In this document: positions 11,683-50,727 of the stretch, one piece after another
Position numbering within the stretch: the first letter of the stretch is position 1
Layout of the letters: each line of letters begins with the position of its first letter
NCBI GenBank assembly: GCA_000004985.1
Contig: GG738887.1
Reading direction: 5' to 3' (one strand)
Source of the DNA: Naegleria gruberi
Taxonomy: Eukaryota
Length of the DNA stretch: 64,000 nt
Program-made: the position numbers and the translations under genes
Notes under the pieces: generated by a model
Told to the model about the DNA's origin: nothing
Databases searched by the model: none
Seen by the model: only the letters and a program-made list of their open reading frames with translations

Positions 11683-12087
11683 TTTCAGAAAATTATTAAA
11701 TTAATGTAAATTCAGACAATGGAGGGAATATTTAACTTGGTTGCCTTTTATAAAAAGCGAGCCTCTCTTGAAATAAACTCTCCTCTGAAATATCAGAATT
11801 ATTCAGATCAAAAACATTCATTTTGTCCATTCCACATTGTTTGAAATACACTCGAAATTCCACTTCCAATTTTTCTTACTAGATTATTCATACCAATCTG
11901 ATCGAGTGAAATATAGAGTGATTCATCGACATGGCTTACAGAAGGATCTGTCAATTTGGTTGAGTCAATTTCTAATAGTTTTTCACTCAATCCCTCAAAA
12001 TATCATTCCACTCGAACAGTGGTTGGAGAAGGGTTTTTCAATATTATGGTGGATAATTTCCATATTAGATGAATTGAGGTCTATGTT

Positions 12088-27052: not shown

Positions 27053-30000
27053 TTAATCAATTACAGTTCTTCTTTCAGCTGATCCAATTACAGTTTTTTG
27101 AACTGGCTTTGTAGTTGTGCTAACAGGAACATGAGTGGTTGATGTTGGAGTTGAGTGAAGAAGAGAGGATGAGCCACGGGAATATTCGCCTCCTTCTTGT
27201 GGCCAATCACCAATTTGTCCTTCAGTTGTTCCAGCAGTGTTAATTCCCATTCTACCAATAATTCCAGTCAACATTCCACCTTGCTCTCCTTGACCAGCCA
27301 TTACATTACCTTGAATGATAGTTTGTTCAATCAAGTCATTCAATCTTTCGATCAATTCTCTAATGTTGGTATTCAAGGCAGTTTCAAGATTGTCATGAAT
27401 CTTTCTTCTGACACGACTTTGAATGATTGGTGAAAGCATCTTGAGCATGAGTTTGTGCTTTTCAGCTTGCTTGAATTTGATATGGAGAGTGTCAACACCA
27501 ACTACAATTCCCTTAACATAGAATGGACGATTCTGACTTAATCTGGCCTTAAGCTTGAGTTTGATGTTAATACCACCTCTATCGAAATCAATATCCATTA
27601 AACCACGATCAGAAATTGATGGGAATGAACGACGATCGAATAAGAAACCAACATCCTTCAAGTGAGCAGTCATACCAAACAAGTGAGCTCCAATGAGGGT
27701 TGCACTTTCAGCCAATCTGTCAGTTGGTTTCAATTCTTCATATTTCATGGAGGTTCTATTCTTGACCTTGAATTTAACATCATCTGGGAGAATATCATTG
27801 GCCTTCAATGTAATATTGGAAATCTTAAAGTATTGACTTCCATCATCACCTTCAACCTCAATGGCATTCCAATTATTGATGGCTTCTTGAATGGCAACAA
27901 AGAGGATGGTTCTGATTTGTTCCAATGCAGATGGCTTCAATTGGAATTTACCTTGTTCATCAAGGAAGAGACGTGAAATTAACTTTTGACTTCTGTCACG
28001 AATTTCAGTATTCAATTCATCATTACGCATACTGGTTAATAATTCACGACCATAGGTAAGCATGTCATTAGTCAAGTCCATGTTCTTCTTCTCTTCAAGA
28101 ACAGTTCTACATTGCCACAATCTTTGTCTCAATTGTTCCTTTTCTTGATGAGATTCTAATAAAGTTGGTTGATTACCATATCTTCTGAAATCATTCATGA
28201 TATCTCTGAGAACTCCCTTCATTCTTTCATCAGTTCTCAAGTGAATAAAGAAAGCATTAGTAGTATCAAGCCACTTATCAAACATTTCCTTATTAGAGAA
28301 TTCATAAAGAATCAACTTGGCATAATTGAGTAAGCTCTTGAAATCATCATCTTCTCTCAATCTTTCAACTGTCTTGGTCTTTTCACCTCCTTGAGTGGCA
28401 GTATCACCAAACAAGCTCTTAACTTGATTAAACAAGTTGAACAATCCATAGAGAGCTCTTTGATAGTTTGGATCCTTGGAGAAACGTTTGTTCAATTGGA
28501 CATAACGATCAATGAGGGAATCTTCAATTTCTCTTCTGTTCTTATCATGGCTGACTGGTTCTTCTTGAGTGGATTGAGAACCAGAAATATTGGAAAGTCC
28601 AGATTTGATTGTAGGTTGTTGTTGACCAACCATTGATTGTTGAGGAACTTGTGGAATATTGGATTGGTATGGTTGACTAATTCCACTTTGGAAACCTTGT
28701 TGGGAGACATCAGATGGTTGCCATTGTTGTTGACCAAATTGTTGTTGTTCAGAAACTGGTCTAAATTGTTGAGCTTGGACATTGGATTGGAGAGATGGTT
28801 CTCTATATTGATCATCAACAATATTCTTATCAGAGAAATGACCAACTTGTCCAATTGACTGTTGGAAAGGAGCAATTCCTTGATGGGAGGTACCATAAAG
28901 TGAAGTTGGTTTCAACTCTTGACTAATACCAGAACTCAAAGGTTGTTGTTGACTGCTACCAATTCCAGAGTATCCAGAACTCAAAGGTTGTTGTTGAGAG
29001 AATTCTGGTTGTTGATAAGAAGGTTGACCAACCATTGATTGTTGAGGAATTTGTGGAATATTGGATTGTTGACCCATTCTTTGTTGACTAAGGTTTGGAT
29101 CAGTAACTCCAAATCCAGAATATTTTTCTTGAGATGGAACATTTCCAACACTTCCCATACCACTACCACTTGCGAAAGATGAGGAAGGTTGTTGCCATTG
29201 CTGACCTACCATTCCAGGTTGTTGACTAACCATTCCAGATTGACCAAATTGTTGACCATATTCTTGCTGTTGTTGCATTCTGGAGAATTCACCTGGTTCA
29301 CTAAGCTGTCCTTGATTTCTCTTCAATTCTTCTTCAGAGTGAACTTTTGAAGGGAGCAATGATTCTTCTTGCTTGTGTTGGAGATTGAGTGTTGCACCAC
29401 TGACAGAGGAAACTACTTCAGAGGTGGTTTCATGAACTGGTTCAGTCTTGCTACTCTCATCAGAAACACCCATTGATTTGATGCCACTTGCCAATTTGGA
29501 AATAATATTACCAGAGCCCTTCTCATCAATGTTGACTTCACCTGCAAGAATTTGCAAATATTGGAAGAATTCACCAATGGCCTCTCTGAAATCAGCACTT
29601 CTAATAAGTTGGAAGACAAAATCACGAAGACCAACAATGGATTGATAGACATCCCTGGTAGCTCCCTTCTGAGAAGTTTCGTATCCACCTTTTTTAAAAA
29701 ACATCATCCAACCATCTTGTTTTCAATGAACAAAATCATGAAAATACTTACGTTTCACACCATATCTGATATCTTCTCCAAATTCTGGAGCATACTTTTG
29801 AGAGAGATTTCTGAAACAAACGAGAAATTGTTGCATCTTCTCATCAGAGTTTCTATCTTCAATGATCAATCTGATCAGATCCAAGAGAATTAAGGTGTCT
29901 CTCTGGATTGTCTTACCTTCCCTTGTGAGGAGTGATTGACTGGAGAGAATGGATTGCTTGGCTTGTTCAATACCTACAAGAACAGCTTCATTGGATGGTG

Positions 30001-32322: not shown

Positions 32323-35300
32323 ATGAAAGTGGTACTACTTGCTATTTTGTTGTGTATTGTTATGTCTGCCAAGTTCATTGACACACAAAGTCTTCTTCTC
32401 TACAATATCACAACAATAGCAGGAGGTGGTTCTGTTGTGGGCGATGGTTTACTTGCTACTAATGCTCAATTAGCAATCCCTGCAGGCGTTGCAATTAGCT
32501 CTATTGGTGAAATAATAATTGCTGACTCCAATAATAATAGAATTCGTAAAATAAGTACAAATGGCTACATTTCAACGATAGCAGGAACAGGAAGTGCATC
32601 ATTTGGTGGTGATGGTGGACTGGCCATTAATGCACAATTAAATAGTCCTTCTGCTGTTTCTATTAGCTCAAATGGTGATATGTATATTTCGGATACGGGC
32701 AATCAAAGAATTAGAAAAATCAGTACCAATGGATATATCTCAACAATTGCAGGAAGTGGAACTGGAGGATACAGTGGAGATGGCGGATTGGCCACAAGTG
32801 CTCAATTATATTATCCCAAGGGAGTAGCTATCAGTCCAAGCAATGAAATTTATATAGCTGATACCTATAACCATAGAATTCGTAAAGTAAACACAAATGG
32901 ATATATCTCAACTGTAGCAGGAAGTGGAACTGGAGGCTACGGTGGAGATGGTGGATTGGCCACAAGTGCTCAGGTAAACTATCCATTTAGCGTGTCAATT
33001 AGTTCTACTGGTGAAATTTATATTGCTGATTATTACAATCAAAGAATTCGAAAAGTTACAACATATGGTTTTATCTCGACTGTGGCAGGAAGTGGAACTG
33101 CTGGATACAGTGGAGATGGTGGATTGGCCACAAGTGCTCAATTATATTATCCGCTTGGTGTGTCAATTAGTTCTGCTGGTGAAATTTATATTGCTGATTA
33201 TTACAATCATAGAATTCGAAAAGTTACGACATCTGGGTACATTTCTACAATTGCAGGAACTACCTATGGTTTCAGTGGAGATGGTGGATTGGCCACAAGT
33301 GCTCAGTTGTACTATCCCAATGGCGTTTCAACAGGCTCCAATGGTGAAATATTTATAGCTGACACATACAATTATAGAATTCGTAAAATTAATACCTCTG
33401 GTTACATTTCTACAATTGCAGGAACATCAAGCTTTGGAAACAACATACCTGCTACCGGCGCCAACATAGCACCAACTGGCTCCCCTACTCTTAACAATGG
33501 TAAAATTGTATTTGCAGACACCTCTGGCCAAGTGAGGCAAGTTGACCTTACTACTAATATTATTTCTACCCTAGGTGGAACTGTTGGATCTACAACAATA
33601 GTACAGGCATTCTATAATCCAACATGCGCAAAGTATTACAAGACAGATTTATATATTCTCTACTCTAACTACTATTTAGACAAGGTCACCTCAGTTGCCA
33701 GTAAGGTTGCAGGTACTGGTACTTTAAATGGATACGGTGGAGATGGTAACCTTGCAACAAGTGCAAGATTGAATTATCCTTATGGTACTGCATTTAGCTC
33801 AAATGGAGATATGTATATTGCAGATACAAACAATAATCGAATTCGTAAAGTTACAACATCTGGATATATCTCAACTGTAGCAGGAAGTGGAACTGGGGGA
33901 TACAGTGGAGATGGTGGATTGGCCACAAGTGCACAATTAAATTATCCAAGATCAGTTGCAATTAGCTCAAGTGGAGAGATTTATATTGCTGATTTCAATA
34001 ACCACAGAATTCGTAAAATTAACATCTCTGGATATATCTCAACAATAGCAGGTACTGGAAGTGTAGGATACAGTGGAGATGGTGGATTGGCCACAAATGC
34101 ACAATTATATTATCCCCAAACAGTTGCAGTCAGCTCAAGTGGTGAAATTTATATTGCTGATGCCTATAACCATAGAATTCGTAAAATTAACACCTCTGGA
34201 TATATCTCAACAATAGCAGGTACTGGAAGTGTAGGATACAGTGGAGATGGCGGATTGGCCACAAGTGCTCAATTATATTATCCATTTAGTGTGGCAATTA
34301 GTTCAGTGGGTGAAATTTATATCGCTGATACCTATAACCATAGAATTCGTAAAATTAATACCTCTGGTTACATTTCCACAATTTCAGGAACTGGAAGTGG
34401 AGGATATAGTGGAGATGGCGGATTGGCCACAAGTGCACAATTAAATTATCCATTTAGTGTGGCAGTTAGTTCAGTTGGTGAAATTTATATAGTTGACACC
34501 AATAACTATAGAATTCGTAAAATTAATACCTCTGGTTACATTTCCACAATTGCAGGAACTGGAACTGGAGGATATAATGGAGATAGTATTTTGGCCACAA
34601 GTGCACAATTAAATTATCCTTATGGACTCACAATAAGTTCAACTAGTGAAATTATTGTTGCTGATTATTACAATCACAGAATTCGTAAAATTAACACCTC
34701 TGGTTACATTTCAACAATTGCTGGCGGTTTTGGTGATGGAGATATGGCCACCACAAGTTTCATTTCAGCTTATTCATTCGAGTTCACTTTAAATGGAGAA
34801 ATTATTATAGCTGATTCAAATAATCACAGAATTCGTAAAATTACAACATTAGGATATATTTCCACAATTTCAGGAACTGGAACTGCTGGATATAATGGAG
34901 ATGAAATTTTGGCAACAAACTCTCAATTGAATAATCCTAACGGAATTGCACTAAGTTCCAATAGTGAAATTTATATAGCTGATACCAATAACCATAGAAT
35001 TCGTAAAGTCAATGCATCTGGTTACATTTCAACAATTGCAGGAACTGGAACTGGAGGATATAATGGAGATGGTGTTTTGGCCACAAGTGCACAATTAAAT
35101 TATCCTAATGGAATTGCAATTCAAGAAAATGGTGAAATACTAATTGCTGACAATAATAATCATAGAATTCGTAAAATACGCACAAATGGCTATATTTCCA
35201 CAATTGCTGGAAGTGGAATTGGTGGATTTACTGATAATACTGTAGCAACAAGTGCTCAATTAGAAAATCCCTTGGGGGTTGCAATCGGTTCAAACAAAGA

Positions 35301-38300
35301 GATTTTTCTTACTGATTCGACCAATAAGAGAATTAGAAAACTTATCCCTTGGTGCTCAGAAAATGGCATTCTAATTAATGGAACTTGTGAATATCAATGT
35401 TTTGGAGAAACTAATAAGAACTCAACTGTTTGCTCTGGAAGAGGAAACTGTATTGGGAATGATCAGTGTAATTGCACCACTCCTCAATACTTCGGTTCAA
35501 AATGCAACCAATTTTATTGTTATGGACTATTGAACGCAATGTCAAATGTTTGTTCGTCCCAAGGTAGCTGTAATTCTCCTAATAATTGTACATGCTTTAA
35601 AGGGCATTATGGAGAAACTTGTCAATATTTTTACTGTAACTCTATTCCATTCAATTCCAGTGCTGCTTGTTTAGGTAGAGGTTCTTGTATCTCATATAAT
35701 AATTGCACATGTCAACAAGATTATGCAGGCAATGATTGTCAATATTTTTATTGTGGTAATCGTCTGAATAATGATGGTACAGTGTGCTCTGCACATGGAA
35801 ACTGTATATCTCCTCATAATTGCTCTTGCGACAGTGGTTTTTATGGAAGCAATTGTGAACAATTCGATTGTTATGGCATTAATAATTTGAATGCATCAGT
35901 TTGTTCCAGAAATGGTTATTGCTCCTCTCCAAATAATTGCAAATGTGATCTTGGTTATTATGGAAATAGCTGTGAAATGTATAACTGTTATGATATTCCA
36001 AAAACTGACCCAAGTGTTTGTTCAGGTCAAGGCCTTTGTTCTTCATATAATAACTGCACTTGTCAACAAAATTATTCAGGAGTTAATTGCGAAAATTTCC
36101 ATTGTTATGGAATATCAAAAATAGAGTCTACAGTGTGCTCATCACATGGAACATGCTTAGCGTTGAATAATTGTTCTTGCATTGATGAATATTTTGGAAA
36201 TAATTGTGACCAATTTAAGTGTTATGGTGTTAACTTTATGAACAATTCAGTTTGTTCAGGAAGAGGCCAATGTATTTCGCCAAACTATTGTAAATGTGAT
36301 CTTGGTTATTATGGAAATAATTGTGAAATGTATGATTGTTATGGGTTGTCAAAAAATAATACCAATGTATGCTCAGGTCACGGTACGTGTATTTCATTGA
36401 ATAACTGTACTTGCAGAGATGGATATTATGATTCCAAATGTGGTTCATTTAACTGTGCTGGAGAAAAATTTATAGGCCAAAACCTTTGCCAAAATAATGG
36501 CTCTTGCACTGGTCCTGGTAACTGTGAATGCCCTATTCAGTATGGAGGTGCTAGATGTGAATATTTCAAATGTTATTCATTTACATCCAATGATCCTCAA
36601 GTATGTGGAGGTCATGGAACTTGTTATAATTATAACCATTGTACTTGCTCTCAAAATTGGTTTGGAAAAGATTGTTCAGTCACCACTTGTTTTAGTACAC
36701 CTTCTAACTCTAGCTCTGTATGTGGTGGAAGAGGTAATTGTACTGATTATAACCAATGCAGTTGCAACATTGGATATAGAGGTAATGAATGTGAACATAC
36801 TGTTTGTTATGATAAGATTGAAAGTGATAGTTCTGTATGCTCTGGAAAAGGTTTATGTCTATCACCAAATAATTGCACCTGTGAAACAGGTTTTGTTGGA
36901 AGTGAGTGTCAATACCATGAAGTATATTTAAATACGTCATCCGCCATTATTTTTTCTTTCCATAACAGTCTAATGAAGTTATTACCAAATGAGAGTGAAC
37001 AATTTTCGTGTTCTGACATTTTTGAAGAATCAGAAATCGACAAATTTGGAGAAAGTTCCTCTTTCATCTGCCAATGGAGAAGAAAATCATTACAAATTCA
37101 TCTTGGTTTTGATTATGCTATTGGTCATAACTCTATCATTCAAACTAAGTTTAACTTTTCATTGAGAGTTTATACTTTATCCAATGAAGCTTCATCTCCA
37201 ACTTGTTCTTTTGGATATTCATTAACTGAAACTTCTCCCTTATTAGATATAGTGATACGTTTGAATTGTGATGACAATTTTCATGGCTTCAAGAAATTGA
37301 GAACTGATTGGTCGTGTGATCAATGCACAAACAGCGTTTCATCATTATTGAACAACTATTCAAATAGATCATCCATTTATATCCCTATTTCATATATGAA
37401 TAGTTTGACTCCTATTCAAGGTTATAAGATTATTAACTTACAAACTTCTTTTTCATCAGAGATTTATTCTACAAAATCCATCAACAAGGAAGTTAAGGTT
37501 CAATCCTATGCAAAATCATTACCTCCAAGTTATTACTGGCTAAGTGATAATTATGCTGGAAAGACATATTCATGTATTGCTCATAATTGCATTTTAGAAA
37601 CTTCTTTAAATAGTTTAAACTCTTCTATTTCTTATTCATTCTCTGGATTTTTCAGTTTATTGAATAATGACCTAAACTCTAAACAAATGGTGAGGATGAT
37701 TAATGATTATTCTGGTGGAGTTTTAGATAGCGAATTTAATTCAAATATGCAAGTATTTGGTGTTCAGCTAAAAACATATGTTTACTTACCATTAAGCATT
37801 GACTCTTTTAAATATTCAACATTTACGAACTTGGATTTTGTTATGGCAGGTGTCAATAGAACATATTCGATCAACTCAGATAGTCTGGTGACAGTTACAT
37901 TGGTAACTGATGATCCATACATCTCAAAATATACTCTAAGCGATTATTTGGAATACACTTGGAAATGCTACATGGTTTCTTCTTCAAATAGATCTCTTCT
38001 TTTGACAGATAATTTATGTTCTTCAATTGAAAACACTAGATCTTATCTTATGTTAGACATTACGAAAATGTCTTTAAAAGAAGGTTCATATGTAATATCT
38101 GCTTCGATTTCCTCTACAAAATACTTTGTCACAACCGTTTACAACTATGCAGGTTTTATTGAATTGTTGGATATTTCCAACGAATCCCCTAAAATAACCA
38201 CAGACTACTTGCCTGCAATCACACCTTCTCATAATAATATTTATTTAAGAAGTGTGGTAAACTCTTCCTCAGAGGTTTCGTTTGCTTGGAACCTCAAACA

Positions 38301-41021
38301 TGGTTATTTGAATGTTGATGAAAACATAGAAGATTTTCTCCAAAGAAACACAATTTACACAAACATCATTGACAATAACGTTGAAATCATTTTGAACGTT
38401 GATAACAAGTACATCATTCCAGGAGAATCGTATGAATTCGAATTATCAACTAAAAATTCAAAAGGTTATGCTAATGTCTCCATTTCAACAAGAGTTGACT
38501 TCTCCCCACGATTGTCATGCGATGTCGAGAATTTGAAGAATGATGCTAATATTACCAGTTTTGAATCATTGATATCCATTACTTGTGTAAAATTACCATA
38601 CGAAAGTATTTCGAGTTTTGTGATGGAATTTTATTCACAAAATGAAAGATTGGGAGTAATATCTAATACTCCAAAGAAATCCTTAGTTACTAGAGTTCCT
38701 TATTATGCACAAGATGGAATAATTACTTTGGTTGTAAAACTTCAAAACTTGTATGGATCTATTGGAGTATTTAGAAAGAATATCAAGATTGGATTACCTA
38801 ATTATTTGTCAAATGACAATACGATTATTTCCCGAGTTACTTACTCCCTAAACCAATTCCAAAATATTAAGAATTCTCAACCAGTCAAGATGGAAGTTTC
38901 AAATGAAATCAATACTTTACTTTCTCTATTAATTCAAAATGAAACTCTCTCGAAATTCTCTGAGAATGTTGTAAAGCAATTGAATTCAGCTCAATTAACT
39001 TCATTCAATACCATGCTAAGAGAAATGATCATATTAACGAAGAGTTTACAAGATATTACATACAGGGTTGATGAAAGAGTCATTCAATTGACTTTGCCCG
39101 TTGTCAGCAAGATTTGTAATATTTTAAAAATAACTCTGGACACTTCATCATTATCTTCATTCGCTCTTGATGTAGAAAAATGGTTGGATTGGATTTATTC
39201 TGGAATGGACAAAGCGCTTAATTATTATCAAACCAATATTTACAAAGACTTACTTGATAACTATCATTTGCAAGAAATAGAGTCATTACAAAACATTCTT
39301 TCAACTATTTATCAAAGTAATTTCGAGCAGCAATACAAGTTCTATAAGTATAATTTACAATACATCAAGCTGACTGGAAGCAATACTGATAATTCAAGCC
39401 TGGTGGAAAATATTGAATATTCTAATTTATTGAATGCCAAGGCTATCTCTCTCTCAATTTCCAACTTTAAGGTGGACATGAAATTACCTAATGATTTTAC
39501 GAACCAAATTTCTTTGCAATCTAAATCTAAACTATTCTATTCTATCAGATCATTTAGTAACACTGGAGCTACAAATCTTTTACAAGAAAAACCAGTGGTT
39601 GATCTATCTCTGTATGACGCCTCTTACAATATTATTAACGTCAAAAATATCAATCCACCAATTGTCTTCAAATTCCAAGGATTAATTACCAATAATAAGA
39701 CTGGCATCAATACTACTTGTATATATTATGACACAACTCTTTCAAAATGGTCTACTATTGGGTTGGAAACATACACCACAATAACTAAAAGAACAGACGA
39801 TTTTATTTACTTCGATATGGAATGTCGTTCCAGTCACTTATCAGTCTTTTCAGTTCAAGAAGTTGATTATAACTCTCCTATCACACCTATTACCGCTATA
39901 TCATCTAATAGATCTAGTAGAGATGAATCATCAACCATTTTAACAATTATATTATCAACAGTTTTACCGATTAGCCTTTTAATACTTGTTTTTATCATTA
40001 TTTTGGTTGTTTTCATGATCCTTTTATTTAGAAATAAGCAAAAGAAAGCAAATGAACTAGCAAATACAACCAATATTGAACTATCAATATCAGACTTCCC
40101 ATCTGAAGGAAGTATGTTTATTCAACCACTTACAAGCATTTCTTCCAATGGAACTGCTTCTGAATCCTTCAATCCTCTCTCTAGATATTCTAATCTGGTA
40201 AGAATTGGACAAGGATCTTTTGGATCTGTGTTTAAAGCATTTGATAACAAGTCCGATTCAGTCAAGGCAATTAAGGTTATTCGATATAATTCAATGGAAG
40301 AATTGAACAATTTTATGAAAGAAGGAACTCAATTAATGAATGTTAAACATCCTTACATTTTGAGAGTTAATGAATTCTTTGTGAGTAAGGATCAATTACT
40401 TTGTATAGATATGGACTTTTATGAACTAGGAGATTTGGTCCGATTGACCAATGTTGATTTTGACTGCTCTGAAAAATTAATTAAGCAAATAATTTTCCAA
40501 ATGTGTCAAGCTCTTGATTACATTCATAGCAATATGAAAATAATTCACAGAGACATCAAACCATCAAATATATTTGTAAAAAGTTTGGAAAATGATAACA
40601 TTCATATCATTGTTGCAGATTTTGGGTTAGCTAAAGCAAATACTACATCTACAAACAATTCTTATGCAGGTACTCCTATTTTTATGGTAAGTTTCTTTAA
40701 TTCTTCATTAATTATTAACAAGTTTAGTCTCCTGAACTTGGCTTAGGTGGAAAATATTATTATAACACGGATATTTATAGTTTAGGTGTTACAATTTATC
40801 AAATAATGACAAAAGACACATTTACATCAATAAGTCAACTTTACTTGGGCAAAGATCAAAATGAAGTATCCAAAATATTAAACAAAAAGTTATAAGAGGA
40901 TCAATACTCCCAAAGACTTACTGATTTAGTGTTATCAATGCTAACAAGAGATAATTCATCTAGACCTCAAGCTCAAGATATTTTGCAAGATTCTTATTTT
41001 GATGATTTAAGAATGAAACGA
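32323..41021 (+). CDS. Giant receptor Ser/Thr kinase of roughly 2,900 aa. Order: signal peptide, about 16 NHL-type beta-propeller blades, 13 EGF-like modules, about 1000 aa of unassigned ectodomain, a single TM, and a C-terminal protein kinase. There is an intron at 40687..40727. The 3' end has an in-frame TAA at 40893, which may be bridged by a 27-nt intron at 40889..40915.
   Basis: Signal peptide MKVVLLAILLCIVMSA. A 56-aa unit …GYISTIAGTG…GYSGDGGLATSAQLNYP…GEIYIADxxNHRIRKINTS… repeats about 16 times. 13 modules follow the pattern C-x-G-x-G-x-C-x4-5-C-x-C-x2-G-Y-x-G-x2-C-E-x-F-x-C-Y-G. The TM is ILTIILSTVLPISLLILVFIIILVVFMILLF. Kinase motifs are IGQGSFGSV, AIKVI, HRDIKPSNIFV, ADFGLAK, then GTPIFM|SPELG across a 41-nt gtaagt…tttag intron, and a C-terminal …DLVLSMLTRDNSSRPQAQDIL. 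Confidence 0.8.
32420..35340 (+). repeat. Tandem coding repeats of period 168 nt (56 aa, NHL-like blades) inside the giant receptor gene. Several copies are more than 90% identical at nucleotide level.
   Basis: Visible in the sequence: for example 33990..34150 and 34160..34320 are nearly identical (catagaattcgtaaaattaacacctctggatatatctcaacaatagcaggtactggaagtgtaggatacagtggagatgg…). Alternate-frame ORFs in the track (33011..33358, 34241..34444) are by-products of this repetition. Confidence 0.8.
35350..36920 (+). repeat. Array of 13 EGF-like (tenascin/integrin-beta-type) modules of about 32–40 aa within the giant receptor.
   Basis: CSGRGNCIGNDQCNC, CSSQGSCNSPNNCTC, CLGRGSCISYNNCTC and similar. 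Each is followed by GYYGxxCExYxCYG linkers. Confidence 0.75.
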
Positions 41022-41198
41022 TAACCAAAAACTGAATTACTTTTTATATTCAACCAGGTGTGGATGTGTAACATTTCAAATTAATACTACTGAAAACAAG
41101 TACTAATATTAATGAGTGGAAAAGCTCAGGATCATGAAATTTTTGACTTTAAACATCTTTTGGCTTGTGGTAAATGAAATTTATTTAATTTATATCAT

Positions 41199-43475
41199 TT
41201 ACTCAAACTCAACCTCTTCTTCATTCAAGCTGATGTGAGCTTGGCGGTTTTCCCACAATAAACTAACTTCAATGTCTGAAAATTTACCATTTCTAGACTC
41301 TGAGTGCACTTGGAATGTATGCAGACCTTTTGGAATTTTTCTTCTTGTGCCAGTAAATACATAAAGTCCACTACTCTTGATATCCAGTTCATCACAAACC
41401 AATTCTAAATATGAATTGTACTTGAGCATATCATTGTGAATCATTCTTAATGCTATGAGGGTTTCACATTTTCTATCAACAGTGAGATTGAATTGTTGAG
41501 TGAGAGTTTTACATCCTGAGTCATCCTCATTGACGAAATCTTTATCATCGTGTTTGAGAATTTGTTTAAAGATTGGGAACGATGAAGATTTGTGAATGGA
41601 TCTCAAAATGGTTTGATCGAATCTAAATCCGAATGCATTATCTTCCTTAAATAAATGATCAATATTTACAATATGTCCAATAGCCATAGTACCAAAGTGA
41701 TTGATAACATCACCTAGTTCCATCCAGAAAACACCATCATCTTGCTCCTCTTTTTCTTTTTGTTTTCTTGATTTCCTATCACTGGCTGTATCATTGACAG
41801 GCAAAAGTCCTGTATTTCTACATAATTGTTGAATCAGATTTGCTTGTTCAGTAACTCTTTCATTGAGGTCTCTTTTGGTTTGGGCTATCATTTCCTTGGA
41901 TACGTCAGACCAAGCTCCTGTCCATTCAGTATTTCCCCCTATAAATTTGGATAAATAATTGAAAATCAAAAAACTATACTTACATGGATTTCTCAATCTA
42001 ACTAATCTATTACCCTTGTACTCTAAGCAATCCAAAAGTGCATAATAGTGACCTCCAACAATGCCATCCTCGTTAGTAAACTCATCTCCTAAACCAGAGT
42101 TATCATCAGACCCAAAACCAATAGCATTCCCATTATTGAATCCGTTTACAATACAACACCAAATCTCATCAAAAGACAAACCTCCACCAACAATACCCTC
42201 TTCAACTACCTCTTCTTCTTGATCTTCTTCGTCTTGTTCGTCATCCTCGTAGCCTTCTTCTTCATATTCTTCTCCTTCCTCCTCATGCTCTTCAATGCAA
42301 GAAACATGATTTCTCAAATCTTCAAATTGTGGGAGGCAGCCAGTAAAAAGATAAATACCCAAAGTACCATCTCCACCCTCTACCTTGGCATAATTTCCAA
42401 ATAATTTGGCGATTGCCTTTTCAACAATCGTAGGCCACAATTCATTTTTGTCTTTAGAATGAACAACCATAATATCACCATCTGTTGTGATTGGTACAAA
42501 ATCGTCAACAGTAACATATTTCCATTCATTTCTCCAAAAGAATCTCAATGTATATTGTCCCATTGCAACATTGGCCTTGACAAATAGATGGGCTATTAAA
42601 TGTGGAAATCTTGCAATGGCTGCCAATGAACTCAATAACCAACAATCTCCAAGACTTCCTTGTCTTATATCTCTGGCATCGATGCCATCAATAATAAGTT
42701 GTGGAATTTCACATAGCTCTGAAGCTCTCTTGAACCCTCCATAATTATTTTCCTTAATTTTCTTTTTACTGAATCCAAGAGAGGTTTCATTTGGTGGGAA
42801 ATCAGGATCAACAAATGGTTCAAGTAAAGGTTGTTGTGTCTTTTGTTGAGCATAGAATTGTTCATAATTTTGGAGATATAAATATTGTGATTGATCAATG
42901 ACTTGTGAAGCTTGTGGAAAACATCCATAAGATTGTTGTTGATTACAGACAGGAGGTTGAACATGGCTGGCGTATGGTTGTTGGACCTGTGGTTGAGATT
43001 GACTTGGTACTCCATAACTTTGTGTTGGTTGACTATTTTGATATGGTTGTTGAGGTTGTGGAGGATAGGATGGTTGACTATGTTGATATGGTTGTTGTGG
43101 CACATTTCCGTATGGTTGTCCATAAGAAGGAGAGTATTGATTAGCATTGTTTTGATATATTCCTTGTGTCATGACTGGTTGTTGCTGTTGTTGATTTGGA
43201 TAATATGATCCAGCAACTTGATTAGAAGAAGGATAAGCATATGAATTCATGTGAGTTTGATGTTGTTGATTTCCTCCTCCATACGGATCGTACATGGATT
43301 GTTGAGGATTGATCACTGGTTGCTGTGGTTGTTGATGTTGAATATTAGCATTGCCATAATATTGTGGTTGTTGATTTTGATATTGGTTTGATTGATAATT
43401 GTTTGATTGTTGTTGCTGTTGTTGATTGTAATACTCGTTATTATTGGCAGGAGAATAGTTGTAAGGATTGTACAT
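41199..43475 (-). CDS. Calpain-like cysteine protease with a Q/N/Y/P-rich (prion-like) N-terminal region and an acidic insert. It contains a 45-nt in-frame intron at 41939..41983 that the ORF track reads through.
   Basis: Catalytic-triad landmarks are QGSLGDCWLLSSLAAIA (Cys), GGHYYALLD (His) and RNPW|G NTEWTGAWSD (Asn). The last motif is restored exactly when gtaagtatag…atttatag (45 nt) is spliced out. N-terminal 190 aa: QQQQQQSNNYQSNQYQNQQPQYY…. Acidic insert EEHEEEGEEYEEEGYEDDEQDEEDQEEE. Confidence 0.8.
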   Translation of the reverse strand: MYNPYNYSPANNNEYYNQQQQQQSNNYQSNQYQNQQPQYYGNANIQHQQPQQPVINPQQSMYDPYGGGNQQHQTHMNSYAYPSSNQVAGSYYPNQQQQQPVMTQGIYQNNANQYSPSYGQPYGNVPQQPYQHSQPSYPPQPQQPYQNSQPTQSYGVPSQSQPQVQQPYASHVQPPVCNQQQSYGCFPQASQVIDQSQYLYLQNYEQFYAQQKTQQPLLEPFVDPDFPPNETSLGFSKKKIKENNYGGFKRASELCEIPQLIIDGIDARDIRQGSLGDCWLLSSLAAIARFPHLIAHLFVKANVAMGQYTLRFFWRNEWKYVTVDDFVPITTDGDIMVVHSKDKNELWPTIVEKAIAKLFGNYAKVEGGDGTLGIYLFTGCLPQFEDLRNHVSCIEEHEEEGEEYEEEGYEDDEQDEEDQEEEVVEEGIVGGGLSFDEIWCCIVNGFNNGNAIGFGSDDNSGLGDEFTNEDGIVGGHYYALLDCLEYKGNRLVRLRNPCKYSFLIFNYLSKFIGGNTEWTGAWSDVSKEMIAQTKRDLNERVTEQANLIQQLCRNTGLLPVNDTASDRKSRKQKEKEEQDDGVFWMELGDVINHFGTMAIGHIVNIDHLFKEDNAFGFRFDQTILRSIHKSSSFPIFKQILKHDDKDFVNEDDSGCKTLTQQFNLTVDRKCETLIALRMIHNDMLKYNSYLELVCDELDIKSSGLYVFTGTRRKIPKGLHTFQVHSESRNGKFSDIEVSLLWENRQAHISLNEEEVEFE

Positions 43476-44557
43476 TTTTTTGATTATTATTTAGTTTTAA
43501 AAACTTTCTCATGTACACACAACCAATTATTTAACCCTTTTTTCATCATGACTTGTGATTTCTCATTCATGGATAACTTGTTTTTTTCTTTTTTTTTAAA
43601 AATTAAAATTATCAAATAAGGCGCCAAACACTTTCTTAATCAAAAATCAGCCTTTATTGTTGGCTTTGCAAGAAGACAGAATGGTTTTGATACAACACAT
43701 ACATTGAGGATTTTTCTTTGAGGTCAACTCTTCGCAATTTTTCATTCTCCCTTCACCTGTCAATGGTAGCAAATTGATTTTTTCAATCCAACCTATCAAT
43801 CAAACCGGCACAACTTTGGGTAAGAAAAGTGAAAAAAACAACACAAAAAAATCGAGATTAAATTGTTGGATTTTCTTGCATTCGATATTGACCACTGTGA
43901 GTCACGTTTCCAGCTGTGCCAACAATTTTCCATCTCTCTTGAGGAAAGCAACAATCAAAAACTTTGTTTTCCAACACTTTGTACTTGTACTGCTATTACT
44001 ACTTTCTAGTTCGTTGAGTATTTCCTCAAATAGTACTGTTGCCAATAGACATTGCTCTTTCAAATTCTATAAGAAGCAACATTGTAGGTTTTATCTTGTT
44101 TTTTATAAGAAGAAAATTAAGAATTCCCACAAACTAACAACAACAATACTGCAATCATATTATATTGCAAATTCCCTAATTCTTGTTGATATTTACTTCC
44201 CTCTCCAAACAAACAAAATTTCTCCCGAATAACACACCCATTCGACTAATTTGTCCAACTCTACAAACTCACAACATTGAACACAATTTGGTAATATTTG
44301 TGTGTGTGCTGTTTCTCATCCTCGTCGTCTCCTCACTCCACACGAAAAAAAACAATACTTTTCGGGTGATATTTCTCCTCTGATTTTAATTATTTAATTG
44401 CAATTATTTATATATATTCAACTTGTGTTATCCAATCTACCTAATCTAATACTAACACTGCCACTGCTATACTACTACTTTGTATCATCCTATTTATTTT
44501 CTTCATCTTCATTACTCAATTTATTTATTTAAAAACATCACAAATCTTCATTTGAAA

Positions 44558-47287
44558 ATGTCTGCCAAAATACAAGAACGTCTGGCTTTCTTCCAGAGCA
44601 ATATTAATAGTAATAACAACAATACAACGGCTCCATTTAAGAGTTCGGTAACATCTGTTGGAAGTATTAAGCAACAACAACAGCAAGCATCTTCATTGAG
44701 TGTACAGCCAAAGCCTAGAAGTCAAACATTATTTGTCAAGCCTACTAGCACTACTTTAAATACTTCCTCTACTACTAATACGAGTGCAACAAGCAATTCT
44801 CTTAGTAAGAATAATATTACTTCCAATCCTACTATTGTTGTAAAACCTCCAACCAAGACTGTAACAATCTCCTCGACTCCTTCTGTTGTCACTACTAACA
44901 ATACTAGCACAAGGGTAAACACAGCATTATCATCCACCAATAATTCAAATAGTGATTCATCGACAAAACCAATGAGTGCAACACCTTCCGAGAAGAAACC
45001 ATCTGGAATTGCAGCAAAGTTAGCTCTCTTCAGCAATGGTAATAACAGTAATAGTAGCAATACCACACAACCAACAGTTTCTCCAAGAGCATCACCAAGA
45101 CTTTCCATTCATCTTTCCAGCTCACCATTCTTGAATGGAAGTTTGAATAATAATACGACAGCAACAACAAGTAATACTGCATCTTCCAATGCAGTACAGG
45201 CCTCTCCAAGAGCTTCACCAAGATTGTCAATTGCATTATCATCTTCACCATTTTTCAACATGGAAAAGGAAAATTCGACCAATCCTTCACCATCTACAAC
45301 ATCTTCGACCACAACAACTCCACCAACCACAAGTTCTACCACTCCAAACACAACAACAACAACTACATCGACAGCAAGTGGTAGCACCAGTACTAGTTCT
45401 TTGAAGGATAGAAAGAATTTATTCGAGCAACAACCACCGACAACTCAACCACCTGTATTTAAAACTAGAAGTGCAACTGTTATGCCATCTTCTAGACCTT
45501 CAACCACACCTTCCTTAGTCACTAGTGGAACAGGTAGTGGTGTTAAAACATCACCAGTTAGTCCTACCACAACTGCTCCGATCACTTCATCCAATGTGAC
45601 TGCAGTTCCAAATACCACCTCTTCAACAACCTCAACAACTCCGTCCACCTCTTCAATAAGTACTCCTTCGACAACAGGAAATAGTATTAAGGATAGGTTC
45701 TCAATGTTTGAGAAGAAAACAGAGGAAAAGCCACCTGTTGTTGGTTCTGGAGCAAAGTGGACAAAACCAAAGACTCAAGAAACATCGACTCCAACAACTA
45801 TTGGTGCAAATAAGAGTGTTTCTCCTCAAACTAAACCAGTTGAAGAAAAGGTGACAATTCCTCCTAAGGAAGAAAATAAGACTGAACCATCAGCTGAACC
45901 ACCAAAAGTAGCAGTGCAAGAAACTACAGTTAAAACAAAGGCTCCTGAAACAATTAAGGAAAATCCAAAAGATGATATTAAGCCAAAATCTCCAACATCT
46001 GAATTGAAACCTGAGGTCACTAAACCAGTTACTTCTCCAAGAGCAACAGAAAAAGCTGTTGAACAAAAACCTGAGCCAAAGACTGTCTCATCAACAACCG
46101 CTACTGCTTCAACTGAAAAGAAGGTAGATGTCAAACCAACTGAACCAGTTTCAAAACCAACACCAGCTACTACATCAGCTTCAGGATCCACTTCTACAAC
46201 AGGAGGTTCTCTTAAATCAAGGTTTGCCATGTTTGAAAAGAAGGAAGAACCACAACCGGTTGTTACTGCCACCAAACCAAAAGTTTCACTCTTCAAGAAG
46301 GAAACCGAAACTAGTGCTCCAACAACTGAACAAAAGGCTGAAGTTGCCAAACCTGTTGTTTCACCAACCACTGAAAAGAAGGTTGAAATTAAGGTTGTAC
46401 CAAAGCCAACAGAAGCTAATGAAGAAAAGAAGGTTGAAGTGGAAGTTGAACCAAAGTCAACTGAAACAACATCTGCTCCACCAACCACTGCTTCAACTGA
46501 AAAGAAGGTTGAGTTGAAACCAACTGAACCTGTTTCAAAACCTTCCACAACTCCAAGCACTGCCACATCAGGATCCGCTTCTACAACAGGAGGTCTTAAA
46601 TCCAAGTTTGCCATGTTTGAAAAGAAGGAACCAGCAACTCCTACTCCAAAGAAGGAAGAACCAACAACTGGCTCAAATTCTGTGAAAAACAAATTTGCCA
46701 TGTTTGAAAAGAAGGATGAACCAACTCCAGAACAACCAAAACCTAAATCAGCAGCAGGATCTGTTGCTGACAGATTCAAACCTAAAGAATCTAGTCCAGA
46801 GGTTATTACAACTCCACCTCCTTCAGAAACTAAATCCTCAAGCGTCCAAGACAGGCTAGTCAAGTTTAAGCAACCTACTGCTTCAGAAACATCTCCAACC
46901 TCTGCTGAAGCATCAGGTACTCCTAAACCATTGACCATTCAAGAAAAATTGGCCAAACTGAAACAAAATTCTGCTGGAACTCCACCACCATTCGGTTTTA
47001 TGGGTGGTCCACCTCCATCTTTTAAGAGTTCACCAAGCTCTGGTGGTGGTAATGACACTCCTTTAATTAATGTCTTTTCACCAACACCTTCCACACCAAA
47101 GGAAAATGTTCCAGATGCAGCCTCTCATGAGAGACAACACCATGGTACCTTATCTTCAGATACTGCCCTTAATAGAGTGAAAAAGGTACCTACCAACAGA
47201 AAGAAGACAGTCATTAAACACAATATTGACAAGGTAGAAAGTACCAGAAAGAGTATTGTTGCTCTCGATGTCGAGGAAGATGAATAA
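44558..47287 (+). CDS. Long intrinsically disordered S/T/P-rich protein (about 910 aa) with repeated (K/R)x(R/K)FAMFEKK(E/D)EP motifs. No signal peptide.
   Basis: It starts MSAKIQERLAFFQSN. Six motif copies: KDRKNLFEQQ, KDRFSMFEKKTEEKP, KSRFAMFEKKEEP, KSKFAMFEKKEPA, KNKFAMFEKKDEP and QEKLAKLKQNS. Between them are runs of TTTTPP, SSTT and KP(T/V)E. Minus-strand ORFs (44722..46938) are composition artefacts. Confidence 0.5.
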   Translation: MSAKIQERLAFFQSNINSNNNNTTAPFKSSVTSVGSIKQQQQQASSLSVQPKPRSQTLFVKPTSTTLNTSSTTNTSATSNSLSKNNITSNPTIVVKPPTKTVTISSTPSVVTTNNTSTRVNTALSSTNNSNSDSSTKPMSATPSEKKPSGIAAKLALFSNGNNSNSSNTTQPTVSPRASPRLSIHLSSSPFLNGSLNNNTTATTSNTASSNAVQASPRASPRLSIALSSSPFFNMEKENSTNPSPSTTSSTTTTPPTTSSTTPNTTTTTTSTASGSTSTSSLKDRKNLFEQQPPTTQPPVFKTRSATVMPSSRPSTTPSLVTSGTGSGVKTSPVSPTTTAPITSSNVTAVPNTTSSTTSTTPSTSSISTPSTTGNSIKDRFSMFEKKTEEKPPVVGSGAKWTKPKTQETSTPTTIGANKSVSPQTKPVEEKVTIPPKEENKTEPSAEPPKVAVQETTVKTKAPETIKENPKDDIKPKSPTSELKPEVTKPVTSPRATEKAVEQKPEPKTVSSTTATASTEKKVDVKPTEPVSKPTPATTSASGSTSTTGGSLKSRFAMFEKKEEPQPVVTATKPKVSLFKKETETSAPTTEQKAEVAKPVVSPTTEKKVEIKVVPKPTEANEEKKVEVEVEPKSTETTSAPPTTASTEKKVELKPTEPVSKPSTTPSTATSGSASTTGGLKSKFAMFEKKEPATPTPKKEEPTTGSNSVKNKFAMFEKKDEPTPEQPKPKSAAGSVADRFKPKESSPEVITTPPPSETKSSSVQDRLVKFKQPTASETSPTSAEASGTPKPLTIQEKLAKLKQNSAGTPPPFGFMGGPPPSFKSSPSSGGGNDTPLINVFSPTPSTPKENVPDAASHERQHHGTLSSDTALNRVKKVPTNRKKTVIKHNIDKVESTRKSIVALDVEEDE

Positions 47288-47325
47288 TTAACAAATAACA
47301 ATTATTAGGACAATTTTGAAAATGT

Positions 47326-47739
47326 TTATTCTTCTTCGTCTTCCCATTCGTCAACATCTTCTCCACCTTCTTCGTCATAATACTCATCATCTTCACCACC
47401 TTCCCATTCATCCTCATCTTCGTTTTCTTCTTCTTTTGGAGGTACTATTGAAACTGTTTTCGTTCCATTGACTTGATCAAGTATTTGGGCATCATGATTA
47501 ATCAGATCCTTATTGAGCAGACCATCTTGATCATTCACATAAACCTTTGATTCGTCTCCAATGGTACCATAATTGTATTTTCCACCTCCACTCTTCTTAT
47601 CATTTCTCAAAATACGTCCACTCTTAATGAATTTTCCACATGAACGATCACGTCCATTGACAGCAATAATGTGATGCCTCTTATTTTGCTTTCCTAATTC
47701 CTTTGGTACTGGTAATTTTTCGTCCATTTTCTCAGTCAA
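47326..47739 (-). CDS. Small hypothetical protein (137 aa) with a strongly acidic, W/E/D-rich C-terminal tail.
   Basis: ORF plus positional context: it diverges from the PP2C gene across a 348-nt promoter region. The tail is EENEDEDEWEGGEDDEYYDEEGGEDVDEWEDEEE. Confidence 0.35.
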   Translation of the reverse strand: MTEKMDEKLPVPKELGKQNKRHHIIAVNGRDRSCGKFIKSGRILRNDKKSGGGKYNYGTIGDESKVYVNDQDGLLNKDLINHDAQILDQVNGTKTVSIVPPKEEENEDEDEWEGGEDDEYYDEEGGEDVDEWEDEEE

Positions 47740-48087
47740 CTAATTGGTTTGTCTCTTTGCTTTCTGGATATCTTTTTGAGTTTTATTTCGATACTAGCAA
47801 CCAAGTTTACTGCCTCTAAAATAGAAATCGAATAGTTTTGGTTTTTTTATTTTAATGTGAGTTTACCAAACGTGTAAACTTTCCTTAATGGAAATCACCC
47901 AAAATAATGGTATCTTTTGAATTGGTTCATTACGATCTGTATACTGAGTTCATACGAAATTAACCATTATCAAATTTAAATACAAAACAATGTATTACAT
48001 TGCACAAGCAAAATTTACGGTTACGAACTTTGGGCGCCAAAAATAAAAATTCAGAGACAAATAAAATACCTTTAGAAGCTAAACAAT

Positions 48088-49443: not shown

Positions 49444-50727
49444 ATGCAAAAATCAACTCTTCACCATCAAATTGAAGTTGAAGAAGTAGAGAGGACTCAT
49501 TCATCATCATCACTTCCGAAAATAGTGCATTCGGAACAACAACCATCTACTACCAACGTTATAGTATCGAGTGCTTTGGCTGGATGTGCAGCCCGATTGG
49601 CTCTACATCCGATCGATACCATAAAAGCAAGAATGTAAGTATCTTCATATGAATAATAGTTTAAAACAGGATCGGAAATTATAGGCAGGTACAAATTACC
49701 AATCCAGAGCTTACATCAAAATTATCAACTGCTATTTTTGAAGGAGGAGCAAATACGAATGGTGGAAATCAAATTTATAGAAATACGTTTCATGCAATTA
49801 CAAGCATGACAAAATATGAAGGTGCTAGAAGTTTTTATAAAGGATTGGGTGCATCATTGATATTTACTGGACCTGCAATTACATTGTACTTGACTTCATA
49901 TGAATATTGTAAGAAAAAATTGTATATACTTGGAAATTATTTAAAGGAAAAGAATGGTGATAATTTTCTTTCGAGGAATTTGATGGGAGAAACAGCACTT
50001 GTCCATTTAGCAAGTGGTTTAGCAGCTGAGAGTGTTAGTTGTGTATTTTGGGTTCCACATGATGTTCTCAAAGAAAGGTTACAAGGTTTGTTTATATAGA
50101 ACTTTTGAATTTACGAAATAATTACATGAACAATAGTTCAACGAGGAAATGAAATCAATCTTACTCAACTCATGAAAATTGTTAGAAAGGATGGATTTTT
50201 ACAACTTTACAAGGGATATTGGATTACATTGGCATCATTTGGTCCATTCAGTGCCATTTACTTTTTAACTTATGAAAGAATGAAGGAACTGTTTCAAAAA
50301 CAAACCTCACAACAAACTCTTCCATTTTCAACAACCTTACTTTGTGGAGCTATTGGAGCTGGATTTGGATCGTTTTGTACCCTTCCATTGGATGTAATTG
50401 TAAGTATTGAGATAATATTTTTCAATGAATTATTGATTTTTTTCTAAATAATTAGAAAACACGATTCCAAGTTCAAAGAAGAATGAAGATGCAAAATATT
50501 GCCATGGAGGAGGATGTAATGTACTACAAGAATTTTGGTGATGCAGTACGAAAGATTATCAAATATGAAGGTCCAACTGCCTTTTGGAAAGGTTTCACAT
50601 CAAGAATGGTTTATGCAGCTCCAAACTCTGCTTTGATTATGGCTCTGTGTAAGTAATTTAAATGTTTCGATTAAATTATTAATAATGGAATAGTTGAGCT
50701 GTTTAAACAAAAGTTTGAATTTATATA
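49444..50727 (+). CDS. Mitochondrial carrier family (SLC25) protein, at least 6 exons.
   Basis: Exon fragments carry carrier signatures: ALAGCAARLALHPIDTIKARM, YKGLGASLIFTGPAITLYLTSYEY, LASGLAAESVSCVFWVPHDVLKERLQ, LYKGYWITLASFGPFSAIYFLTYE, GAIGAGFGSFCTLPLDVI|KTRFQVQ and WKGFTSRMVYAAPNSALIMAL|FELFKQKFEFI*. Introns start gtaagt or gtatct. Exact exon boundaries of the middle exons are not fully resolved. Confidence 0.65.

What the first reader, a model, noticed from the sequence alone, without database searches (positions are those of the whole stretch)
40880..40920. In-frame TAA in the last kinase subdomains: 27-nt micro-intron, frameshift or decay?
After …GKDQNEVSKILNKK the frame hits TAA at 40893. 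Downstream, the same frame encodes a perfect kinase subdomain XI (LTDLVLSMLTRDNSSRPQAQDIL…MKR*). Removing gttataagaggatcaatactcccaaag (40889..40915, GT…AG, 27 nt) joins the two in frame. A 27-nt intron is shorter than the other 36–156-nt introns in the window. An alternative frame over the same bases reads KKVIRGSILPKTY, which also looks kinase-like, so two compensating indels are an alternative explanation.
Basis: seen in the sequence. Interest (0 to 1): 0.5.

Follow-up and report, generated by a model that had tools for sequence, protein, structure and literature searches.

The report
Premature stop codon, not a micro-intron
The in-frame TAA is a single-base stop codon inside ordinary coding sequence near the end of a Naegleria gruberi receptor kinase gene, either a young mutation or a base-call error, and the proposed 27-base intron is a chance GT…AG pair.

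Summary
The window comes from Naegleria gruberi NEG-M. The gene is a teneurin-like NHL/EGF receptor kinase: exon 1 at 32323..40686, a 41-nt GTAAGT…TAG intron at 40687..40727, and exon 2 from 40728. Exon 2 hits TAA at 40893-40895, and the same frame then continues through kinase subdomain XI to TAA at 41022-41024.

The micro-intron reading is not supported:
- All seven homologues that cover this region, and human MST3, have coding residues across the nine codons (KKMEEPGQYSQ versus KKL*E-DQYSQ).
- A paralogue HMM scores the in-frame reading at 445 bits, the frameshift reading at 431-434, the 27-nt-spliced reading at 425 and the truncated reading at 401.
- The GTTATA donor and AAG acceptor score no better than random GT and AG sites in the same ORF.
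- Ten local introns are 41-131 nt long, with GTAAGT or GTATGT donors.
- 22% of codons in this ORF are bracketed by an in-frame GT…AG of 30 nt or less.
- Splicing would delete the whole αG-αH linker.

The TAA sits where homologues have E, K, T, N or S. It is one base away from GAA or AAA. It is therefore a young nonsense allele or a consensus base error, and only read data can decide which. The public gene model (XP_002673894.1) reads into the 41-nt intron and omits exon 2. Interest is low.

The parts
32323..40686 (+). Exon 1 of the receptor kinase gene. It encodes a signal peptide, NHL/teneurin-NHL repeats, teneurin-type EGF repeats, a transmembrane helix and kinase subdomains I-VIII, ending in …GTPIFM.
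   Evidence: Uninterrupted 2788-codon ORF. Pfam matches to NHL, TEN_NHL, EGF_TEN and Pkinase profile positions 1-164. The ORF read on to 40746 is identical to XP_002673894.1 of N. gruberi.
40687..40727 (+). A genuine 41-nt spliceosomal intron (GTAAGT…GTTTAG). The public gene model reads through it.
   Evidence: Splicing gives GTPIFM|SPELGLGGKY, which matches GTPLFMSPELGLGGKY in all paralogues. The leave-one-out donor score is +12.8 bits. The intron is 20% GC.
40728..40892 (+). Exon 2 up to the premature stop. It covers kinase subdomains VIII-X (SPE, DIYSLG, the αF helix and the αG-like helix).
   Evidence: tblastn and translation, alignment A1 and secondary-structure mapping.
40893..40895 (+). 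In-frame TAA, the premature stop. The aligned homologue residues are E, T, K, N, K, K and S. TAA is one substitution away from GAA (Glu) or AAA (Lys).
40889..40915 (+). The proposed 27-nt 'intron'. It is in fact coding sequence for the last turn of the αG-like helix, the αG-αH loop and the first residues of αH (L*EDQYSQR).
   Evidence: - Homologous to coding residues in all seven homologues that cover the region and in human MST3.
- HMM scores are 445 bits when retained and 425 bits when spliced. Pfam Pkinase scores are 181.6 and 174.8 bits.
- The donor scores -5.4 bits and the acceptor -4.5 bits, both at decoy level.
- GC is 37%, against 23% in real introns.
40896..41021 (+). Intact in-frame remainder of the kinase domain: αH, αI and the subdomain XI Arg. 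In the sequence as given it is stranded behind the stop.
   Evidence: 42 codons with no stop or frameshift, 62% identical (26/42) to the closest paralogue P0001. It aligns with MST3 through …RPTAKELLK.
41022..41024 (+). The ancestral stop codon of the gene (TAA).
   Evidence: The paralogues end within a few residues of this position.

Best explanation
The 27 nt are ordinary coding sequence, and the TAA at 40893-40895 is a single-nucleotide nonsense codon. It most simply derives from GAA (Glu) or AAA (Lys), at a poorly conserved residue at the C-terminal end of the αG-like helix. The gene is an otherwise intact N. gruberi NHL/EGF receptor Ser/Thr kinase.

My preferred reading is that the change is real in strain NEG-M: a young nonsense allele, possibly one haplotype of this heterozygous diploid. 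As sequenced, the mRNA would be spliced only at the 41-nt intron and would give a 2843-residue protein. That protein would keep its full ectodomain and transmembrane helix. Its kinase domain would lack αH, αI and the subdomain XI Arg, which pairs with the Glu of the APE (here SPE) motif. The kinase would therefore probably be unstable or inactive.

Shown here:
- the stop is present;
- the 27 nt are homologous to coding sequence;
- the splice signals are poor;
- the downstream frame is intact.

Inferred:
- the stop is genuine rather than a base-call error;
- truncation kills the kinase;
- the transcript escapes junction-dependent NMD because the stop lies in the last exon.
For: - The window is N. 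gruberi NEG-M.
- All seven homologues that cover the region keep sense codons there: KKMEEPGQYSQ, EKLTNAGKYSQ, KRLKEAGNYSD and so on, against KKL*E-DQYSQ here.
- Two environmental homologues encode the whole kinase domain as a single continuous ORF.
- Human MST3 (PDB 4u8z) aligns without a gap: xedqysqrl against tlegnyskpl.
- Paralogue HMM scores: in-frame 444-445 bits, frameshift 431-434, 27-nt-spliced 424.6, truncated 400.7. Pfam Pkinase scores 181.6 bits with the nine codons and 174.8 without.
- In the AF2 model of paralogue P0002 (pLDDT at least 96 in this region), the nine residues cover the end of helix 236-250, loop 251-254 and the start of helix 255-264.
- All catalytic motifs are intact: GQGSFG, AIK, HRDIKPSN, DFG, SPE and the subdomain XI Arg. 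Exon 1 has 2788 open codons, and the 42 codons after the stop are open and 62% identical to P0001. The same drop in tail identity is seen in all paralogues, so the lesion is young.
- Naegleria is described as mainly a heterozygous diploid (PMC9928731).
Against: - No read-level or cDNA data could be reached, so a consensus base error cannot be told apart from a true mutation.
- The complete absence of any other lesion is also what a sequencing error would produce.
- Splicing or readthrough at a low level cannot be excluded from sequence alone.
Confidence: 0.5

Rival explanations
1. Base-call or consensus error in the Sanger draft assembly. The real genome has a sense codon such as GAA or AAA at 40893, and the gene encodes a complete 2886-residue receptor kinase.
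For: - A single substitution is enough to explain the stop. Everything else in the gene is intact, and the downstream tail is as conserved as in the paralogues.
- No second assembly or annotation of this locus exists in the 15-billion-protein collection. The cluster of P0121 has one member.
Against: - Substitution errors that create a stop are rare in consensus sequence of several-fold Sanger coverage. This rests on general knowledge, and the coverage at this site is unknown.
- Nothing in the local sequence, such as a homopolymer or a repeat, suggests a hard-to-call base. The stop does follow an A-rich run (aaacaaaaag).
Confidence: 0.32
2. A 27-nt spliceosomal micro-intron (40889..40915) is removed, perhaps as a recent 'intronization' that rescues the stop. 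The result would be a kinase nine residues shorter.
For: It has GT…AG ends and a length that is a multiple of three. The spliced product still scores as a full-length Pkinase domain (174.8 bits).
Against: - The stretch is homologous to coding residues in every homologue and in MST3.
- Splicing costs 20 bits on the paralogue HMM.
- Splicing deletes the whole αG-αH loop and parts of both helices.
- The donor GTTATA scores -5.4 bits, against +3 to +13 for local introns, and 51% of decoy GT sites score as well or better. The acceptor AAG scores -4.5 bits, and 72% of decoy AG sites score as well or better.
- GC is 37%, against 16-31% in local introns.
- It is 27 nt long, against 41-131 nt locally. 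A minimum intron length of 30 bp was used for N. fowleri read mapping (PMC8296547).
- 22% of codons in this ORF have such an in-frame bracket by chance.
Confidence: 0.05
3. The TAA is read through in translation, or decoded as an amino acid, so a full-length kinase is made from the sequence as it stands.
For: The downstream frame is intact and conserved.
Against: - The organism uses the standard code. Exon 1 has 2788 codons with no TAA, TAG or TGA, and this gene ends on TAA.
- The context TAA-GAG matches no readthrough motif that I know of (my own knowledge).
- The 98 nt from the stop onward fold no better than shuffled sequence (z = +1.22).
Confidence: 0.03
4. Two compensating indels: the true reading is the +1 frame, KKVIRGSILPKTY.
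For: The +1 frame is open for 13 codons and looks loosely kinase-like.
Against: - Frame 0 reproduces the family motif E..QYSQ.L.DL, and the +1 peptide does not.
- The +1 reading scores 11-14 bits lower on the paralogue HMM.
- It needs two errors or mutations instead of one.
Confidence: 0.02

Closest known systems
Premature termination codon in a young (unitary or allelic) pseudogene, or a nonsense polymorphism
   Same: A single in-frame stop at a position where all homologues have a sense codon. The reading frame is intact and conserved on both sides, and there are no other lesions.
   Different: Whether it is real could not be verified with reads. The stop lies only 43 codons from the natural end and in the last exon, so the ectodomain and most of the protein would still be made.
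N. gruberi paralogous NHL-receptor / stand-alone kinases (P0001, 75% identical; also P0002, P0005, P0006 and N. fowleri FDP41_004619)
   Same: The same kinase subfamily, with the same catalytic motifs and the same αG-loop-αH layout. An environmental homologue, L001, also has NHL repeats upstream of the kinase.
   Different: All of them have a sense codon at the TAA position. They also have one to three more residues in the loop.
Ultra-short spliceosomal introns (Paramecium, about 25 nt; Stentor, 15-16 nt; nucleomorphs, 18-21 nt; recalled from my own knowledge)
   Same: Only the length class and the GT…AG termini.
   Different: Those organisms have genome-wide populations of such introns, with their own conserved signals. 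Here the ten local introns are 41 nt or longer with GTAAGT or GTATGT donors, and the candidate has neither their signals nor their composition.
Human MST3/STK24 kinase domain (PDB 4u8z), the best solved relative
   Same: A full-length, gap-free alignment through the disputed nine codons and subdomain XI (E = 4e-30).
   Different: It is only a distant relative (STE20-like or NEK-like by score). It is not a receptor kinase.

Membership tests
U2-type spliceosomal intron (as found in N. gruberi) | GT…AG termini | tested here: met
   GT at 40889-90 and AG at 40914-15. However, 22% of codons in the same ORF have an in-frame GT…AG bracket of 30 nt or less by chance.
U2-type spliceosomal intron (as found in N. 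gruberi) | Donor consensus GTAAGT or GTATGT | tested here: not met
   The donor is GTTATA and scores -5.4 bits, against +3.1 to +12.8 bits for ten local introns in leave-one-out scoring. Of 421 decoy GT sites in the ORF, 50.6% score as well or better. Caveat: eight of the ten reference introns were found using a GT[AG][AT]GT filter.
U2-type spliceosomal intron (as found in N. gruberi) | YAG acceptor with an AT/T-rich 3' end | tested here: not met
   The acceptor is CTCCCAAAG and scores -4.5 bits. Of 409 decoy AG sites, 72% score as well or better. All ten local introns end in CAG or TAG.
U2-type spliceosomal intron (as found in N. gruberi) | Length within the species' range | tested here: not met
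   It is 27 nt long, against 41-56 nt (one of 131 nt) for local introns. The N. gruberi mean is 203 bp, and a minimum of 30 bp was used for N. fowleri (PMC8296547). The genome-wide minimum for N. gruberi was not available.
U2-type spliceosomal intron (as found in N. gruberi) | The sequence is not homologous to coding residues of intron-less homologues | tested here: not met
   The nine codons align in frame with coding residues in seven homologues and in MST3. The HMM score is 20 bits higher when they are retained.
U2-type spliceosomal intron (as found in N. gruberi) | Absent from the mature mRNA | not testable with these tools
   No cDNA or RNA-seq reads could be reached. RNA-seq for N. gruberi does exist (PRJEB23822; PMC6142364).
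Eukaryotic protein kinase domain (Pfam PF00069) | Full-length profile match with intact catalytic motifs | tested here: met
   Pkinase profile positions 1-263 of 263 are matched at 181.6 bits when the stop is read as X. GQGSFG, AIK, HRD, DFG, SPE and the subdomain XI Arg are all present. As encoded up to the stop, the domain lacks αH and αI.
Premature stop / nascent pseudogene | In-frame stop where homologues have a sense codon, with homologous coding sequence continuing beyond it | tested here: met
Premature stop / nascent pseudogene | The stop is present in the organism's DNA and is not an assembly error | not testable with these tools
   No reads and no second assembly were available. The protein cluster has a single member, and the metagenome scan found nothing close.
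Stop-codon reassignment or programmed readthrough | Frequent in-frame TAA in other genes, or a stimulatory context or structure | tested here: not met
   Exon 1 is a 2788-codon ORF with no stop, and genes here end on TAA. There is no stable downstream RNA structure (z = +1.22).

The most novel reading that the evidence does not exclude
Intronization in progress. A fresh nonsense mutation in coding sequence would be partly rescued because the spliceosome occasionally removes the fortuitous in-frame 27-nt GT…AG segment. If so, this would be by far the shortest intron among those seen in this window. I know of no shorter one in Naegleria, but I did not survey the genus. It would also be a live example of an exon segment turning into an intron.
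Probability: 0.04. Interest if true: 0.6.

Novelty: new member of a known kind. Interest (0 to 1): 0.12.

Why it matters
It matters little for biology at large. This is one more premature stop, or one more base error, in a lineage-specific multigene family.

It has practical value for annotation. The public model NAEGRDRAFT_70916 / XP_002673894.1 runs into a 41-nt intron and misses the last third of the kinase domain. The locus should be flagged either as a kinase-dead or truncated receptor or as a site to correct.

It also gives a caution for genome scans. In AT-rich coding sequence, an in-frame GT…AG pair around a given codon is common. It occurs at 22% of codons for lengths up to 30 nt, so it is not evidence of an intron.

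Tried and rejected
- **Ciliate-type code (TAA = Gln).** Rejected, because the same gene has 2788 stop-free codons and ends on TAA.
- **Frameshift reading KKVIRGSILPKTY.** Rejected on homology and HMM score.
- **Other in-frame GT…AG pairs around the stop.** 40866..40898 (33 nt), 40889..40948 (60 nt), 40834..40896 (63 nt) and 40834..40929 (96 nt) all have non-consensus donors. Only the 33-nt option was scored on the paralogue HMM, at 422.7 bits, which is lower than the 27-nt option.
- **Readthrough-stimulating RNA structure.** None found.
- **DNA of the closest N. gruberi paralogues.** P0001 and P0002 are not on record in the contig index.
- **An orthologue or a second copy of the locus.** The JGI metagenome scan returned only a 35%-identical kinase. 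There is no other kinase of this family in the window. The 90% cluster of the public protein has a single member, so neither alternative gene model nor any read-assembly fragment is in the collection. For that reason I did not spend a second large protein search.
- **Literature searches for the N. gruberi intron-length distribution.** They gave only the mean (203 bp) and the 30-bp minimum used for N. fowleri.

Full report
**Observation.**
- The + strand carries a 2788-codon open frame from 32323 to 40686.
- A 41-nt GTAAGT…GTTTAG segment follows at 40687..40727. A second coding stretch starts at 40728.
- In that frame the peptide SPELGLGGKYYYNTDIYSLGVTIYQIMTKDTFTSISQLYLGKDQNEVSKILNKKL is followed by TAA at 40893-40895.
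- The same frame then continues for 42 codons (EDQYSQRLTDLVLSMLTRDNSSRPQAQDILQDSYFDDLRMKR) to TAA at 41022-41024.
- The string gttataagaggatcaatactcccaaag is exactly 40889..40915: 27 nt, GT…AG.
- The +1 frame reads KVIRGSILPKTY*.

**Source and annotation.**
- Exact-sequence look-up shows that ORF 32323..40746 is XP_002673894.1 / EFC41150.1 (NAEGRDRAFT_70916, 2807 aa) of Naegleria gruberi, on a 508-kb scaffold.
- ORF 57258..59546 is XP_002673900.1. The window is therefore N. gruberi NEG-M.
- The public model is the bare ORF. It reads into the 41-nt intron (…GTPIFMVSFFNSSLIINKFSLLNLA*) and lacks exon 2 altogether.
- Pfam shows NHL/teneurin-NHL repeats, teneurin-type EGF repeats and the first 164 of 263 Pkinase profile positions in exon 1.
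- With exon 2 added, the Pkinase match becomes full length, 1-263.
- The 41-nt intron is supported by the junction GTPIFM|SPELGLGGKY, which reproduces GTPLFMSPELGLGGKY of the paralogues.

**What homologues have at the disputed 27 nt.**
- The closest proteins are N. gruberi paralogues (P0001 at 75% identity; P0002, P0005, P0006, P0007, P0009), one N. fowleri protein (P0008) and two environmental proteins (P0003, P0004).
- In alignment A1, every homologue that covers the region has coding residues there. They read KKMEEPG--QYSQ, EKLTNAG--KYSQ, KRLKEAG--NYSD, NEINTKSDHKYSS, NQMKESSQSEYSE, KQMKQSNDNEYSN and NKLSEPG--IYSK. The window reads KKL*E-D--QYSQ.
- The two environmental loci encode the whole kinase domain as one continuous ORF.
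- The best solved relative, human MST3 (4u8z), aligns without a gap across the nine codons: xedqysqrl against tlegnyskpl.
- The 27 nt are therefore ancestral coding sequence read in frame 0.
- The TAA occupies a variable position (E/T/K/N/K/K/S) and is one substitution away from GAA or AAA.

**Scoring the alternative readings.** An HMM built from the paralogues alone gave the scores below.

| Reading | Score (bits) |
|---|---|
| In-frame, E at the stop | 445.3 |
| In-frame, X at the stop | 444.2 |
| Two frameshift versions | 434.5 and 430.8 |
| 27-nt-spliced | 424.6 |
| Alternative 33-nt GT…AG removed | 422.7 |
| Truncated at the stop | 400.7 |

Pfam Pkinase agrees: 181.6 bits with the nine codons and 174.8 without.

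**Structure.**
- An AlphaFold2 model of paralogue P0002 has mean pLDDT 86.9, and at least 96 in this part.
- It shows a helix at 236-250, a four-residue loop at 251-254 and a helix at 255-264.
- Mapped through A1, the TAA aligns with T248, at the end of the αG-like helix.
- The nine residues cover the last turn of that helix, the entire loop and the start of αH.
- Splicing them out would fuse two helices with no linker.
- Truncation at the stop removes αH, αI and the nearly invariant subdomain XI Arg.
- From established kinase structure (PKA Glu208-Arg280), this Arg anchors the Glu of the APE motif. A truncated domain is therefore probably inactive. This step is an inference.

**Splice signals and chance.**
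- Ten introns in the window could be defined. Two rest on homology: the kinase intron, and a 45-nt in-frame intron in the neighbouring calpain-like gene that restores RNPWGNTEWTGAWSD. The other eight rest on ORF joining.
- They are 41, 43, 44, 44, 45, 47, 47, 54, 56 and 131 nt long. All begin GTAAGT or GTATGT and all end CAG or TAG. Their GC is 16-31%.
- The candidate is 27 nt long, starts GTTATA, ends AAG and is 37% GC, against 34% for the ORF.
- On position weight matrices from the ten introns, its donor scores -5.4 bits. True donors score +3.1 to +12.8 in leave-one-out scoring, and 50.6% of the 421 decoy GT sites in the ORF do as well or better.
- Its acceptor scores -4.5 bits, and 72% of the 409 decoy AG sites do as well or better.
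- Caveat: eight of the ten reference introns were found with a GT[AG][AT]GT filter, so the donor matrix is partly circular.
- An in-frame GT…AG bracket of 15-30 nt exists around 21.8% of codons in the same ORF, and one of 15-45 nt around 48%.
- The literature gives a mean N. gruberi intron length of 203 bp, and a 30-bp minimum used for mapping N. fowleri RNA-seq (PMC8296547).

**Other ways past the stop.**
- The genetic code is standard. Exon 1 has 2788 codons without a stop, and this gene ends on TAA.
- The 98 nt from the stop onward fold no better than shuffled sequence (z = +1.22), so nothing points to programmed readthrough.

**Age and reality of the stop.**
- There is no other lesion in the gene, and all catalytic motifs are intact.
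- The tail after the stop is 62% identical (26/42) to P0001, against 78% before it. Every paralogue shows the same drop towards the C-terminus.
- The change is therefore very recent, or it is not real.
- Naegleria is described as mainly a heterozygous diploid (PMC9928731), so a nonsense allele sheltered by a good allele is plausible. A substitution error in the draft consensus is equally compatible with the data.
- I could reach no independent copy of the locus. The paralogue loci are not indexed. The JGI metagenome scan found only a 35%-identical kinase. The 90% cluster of the public protein has a single member.
- I put about 0.5 on a genuine nonsense allele, about 0.3 on a base-call error, about 0.05 on splicing of the 27 nt, and less on readthrough or frameshifts.

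**Verdict.**
- What is there is a single-base premature stop in normal coding sequence near the 3' end of a mis-annotated receptor kinase gene.
- This is an ordinary kind of feature. Its interest is low, except as an annotation fix and as a reminder that GT…AG brackets are common by chance.

Noticed in passing
window 32323..40746 and 40687..41024: The public N. gruberi gene model XP_002673894.1 (NAEGRDRAFT_70916) is the bare ORF. It reads through a 41-nt GTAAGT…TAG intron and ends 20 codons into it. Kinase subdomains IX-XI (exon 2) are therefore missing from the annotation.
   Followed up: yes
window 41939..41983 (- strand), in the calpain-like gene 41199..43475: A 45-nt GTAAGT…TTTATAG intron that is in frame and free of stops, so the plain ORF reads straight through it. 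Splicing restores the calpain motif RNPWGNTEWTGAWSD. The plain 758-aa ORF is not in the protein collection, so the public model differs from it.
   Followed up: partly
window 11025..11068, 23026..23072, 50400..50455, 60113..60243, 60624..60667, 61295..61337, 61724..61770 (+); 15317..15370 (-): A tight class of very short introns, 43-56 nt with one of 131 nt. They have invariant GTAAGT or GTATGT donors and CAG or TAG acceptors, and GC of 16-31%. They were inferred from ORF joining. A 36-nt candidate (29716..29751, - strand, GTAAGT…CAAG) is unverified.
   Followed up: partly
window 57258..59546: The N. gruberi LRR protein XP_002673900.1 shares a 90%-identity cluster with a 749-aa protein (P0123) from a 7.8-kb ENA metagenome contig. 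A close relative of N. gruberi is therefore present in an environmental assembly.
   Followed up: no
L001 1269..3301 (JGI metagenome 3300002220): An environmental homologue has the same layout on a smaller scale: NHL/teneurin-NHL repeats, then a short ORF, then the kinase. It has no intron in the kinase domain, so NHL-repeat receptor kinases are not confined to N. gruberi.
   Followed up: partly
window 44001..48000; 12001..14000; 20001..22000: Strong strand-composition anomalies. GC skew is -0.31 and -0.20 at 44-48 kb. AT skew is -0.24 at 12-14 kb and -0.27 at 20-22 kb. These are probably low-complexity or biased coding regions.
   Followed up: no
protein search: The word-indexed protein search did not return the window's own public protein P0121 (2807 aa, 172 residues identical to the query). 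Very long proteins may therefore be missed by that tool.
   Followed up: no
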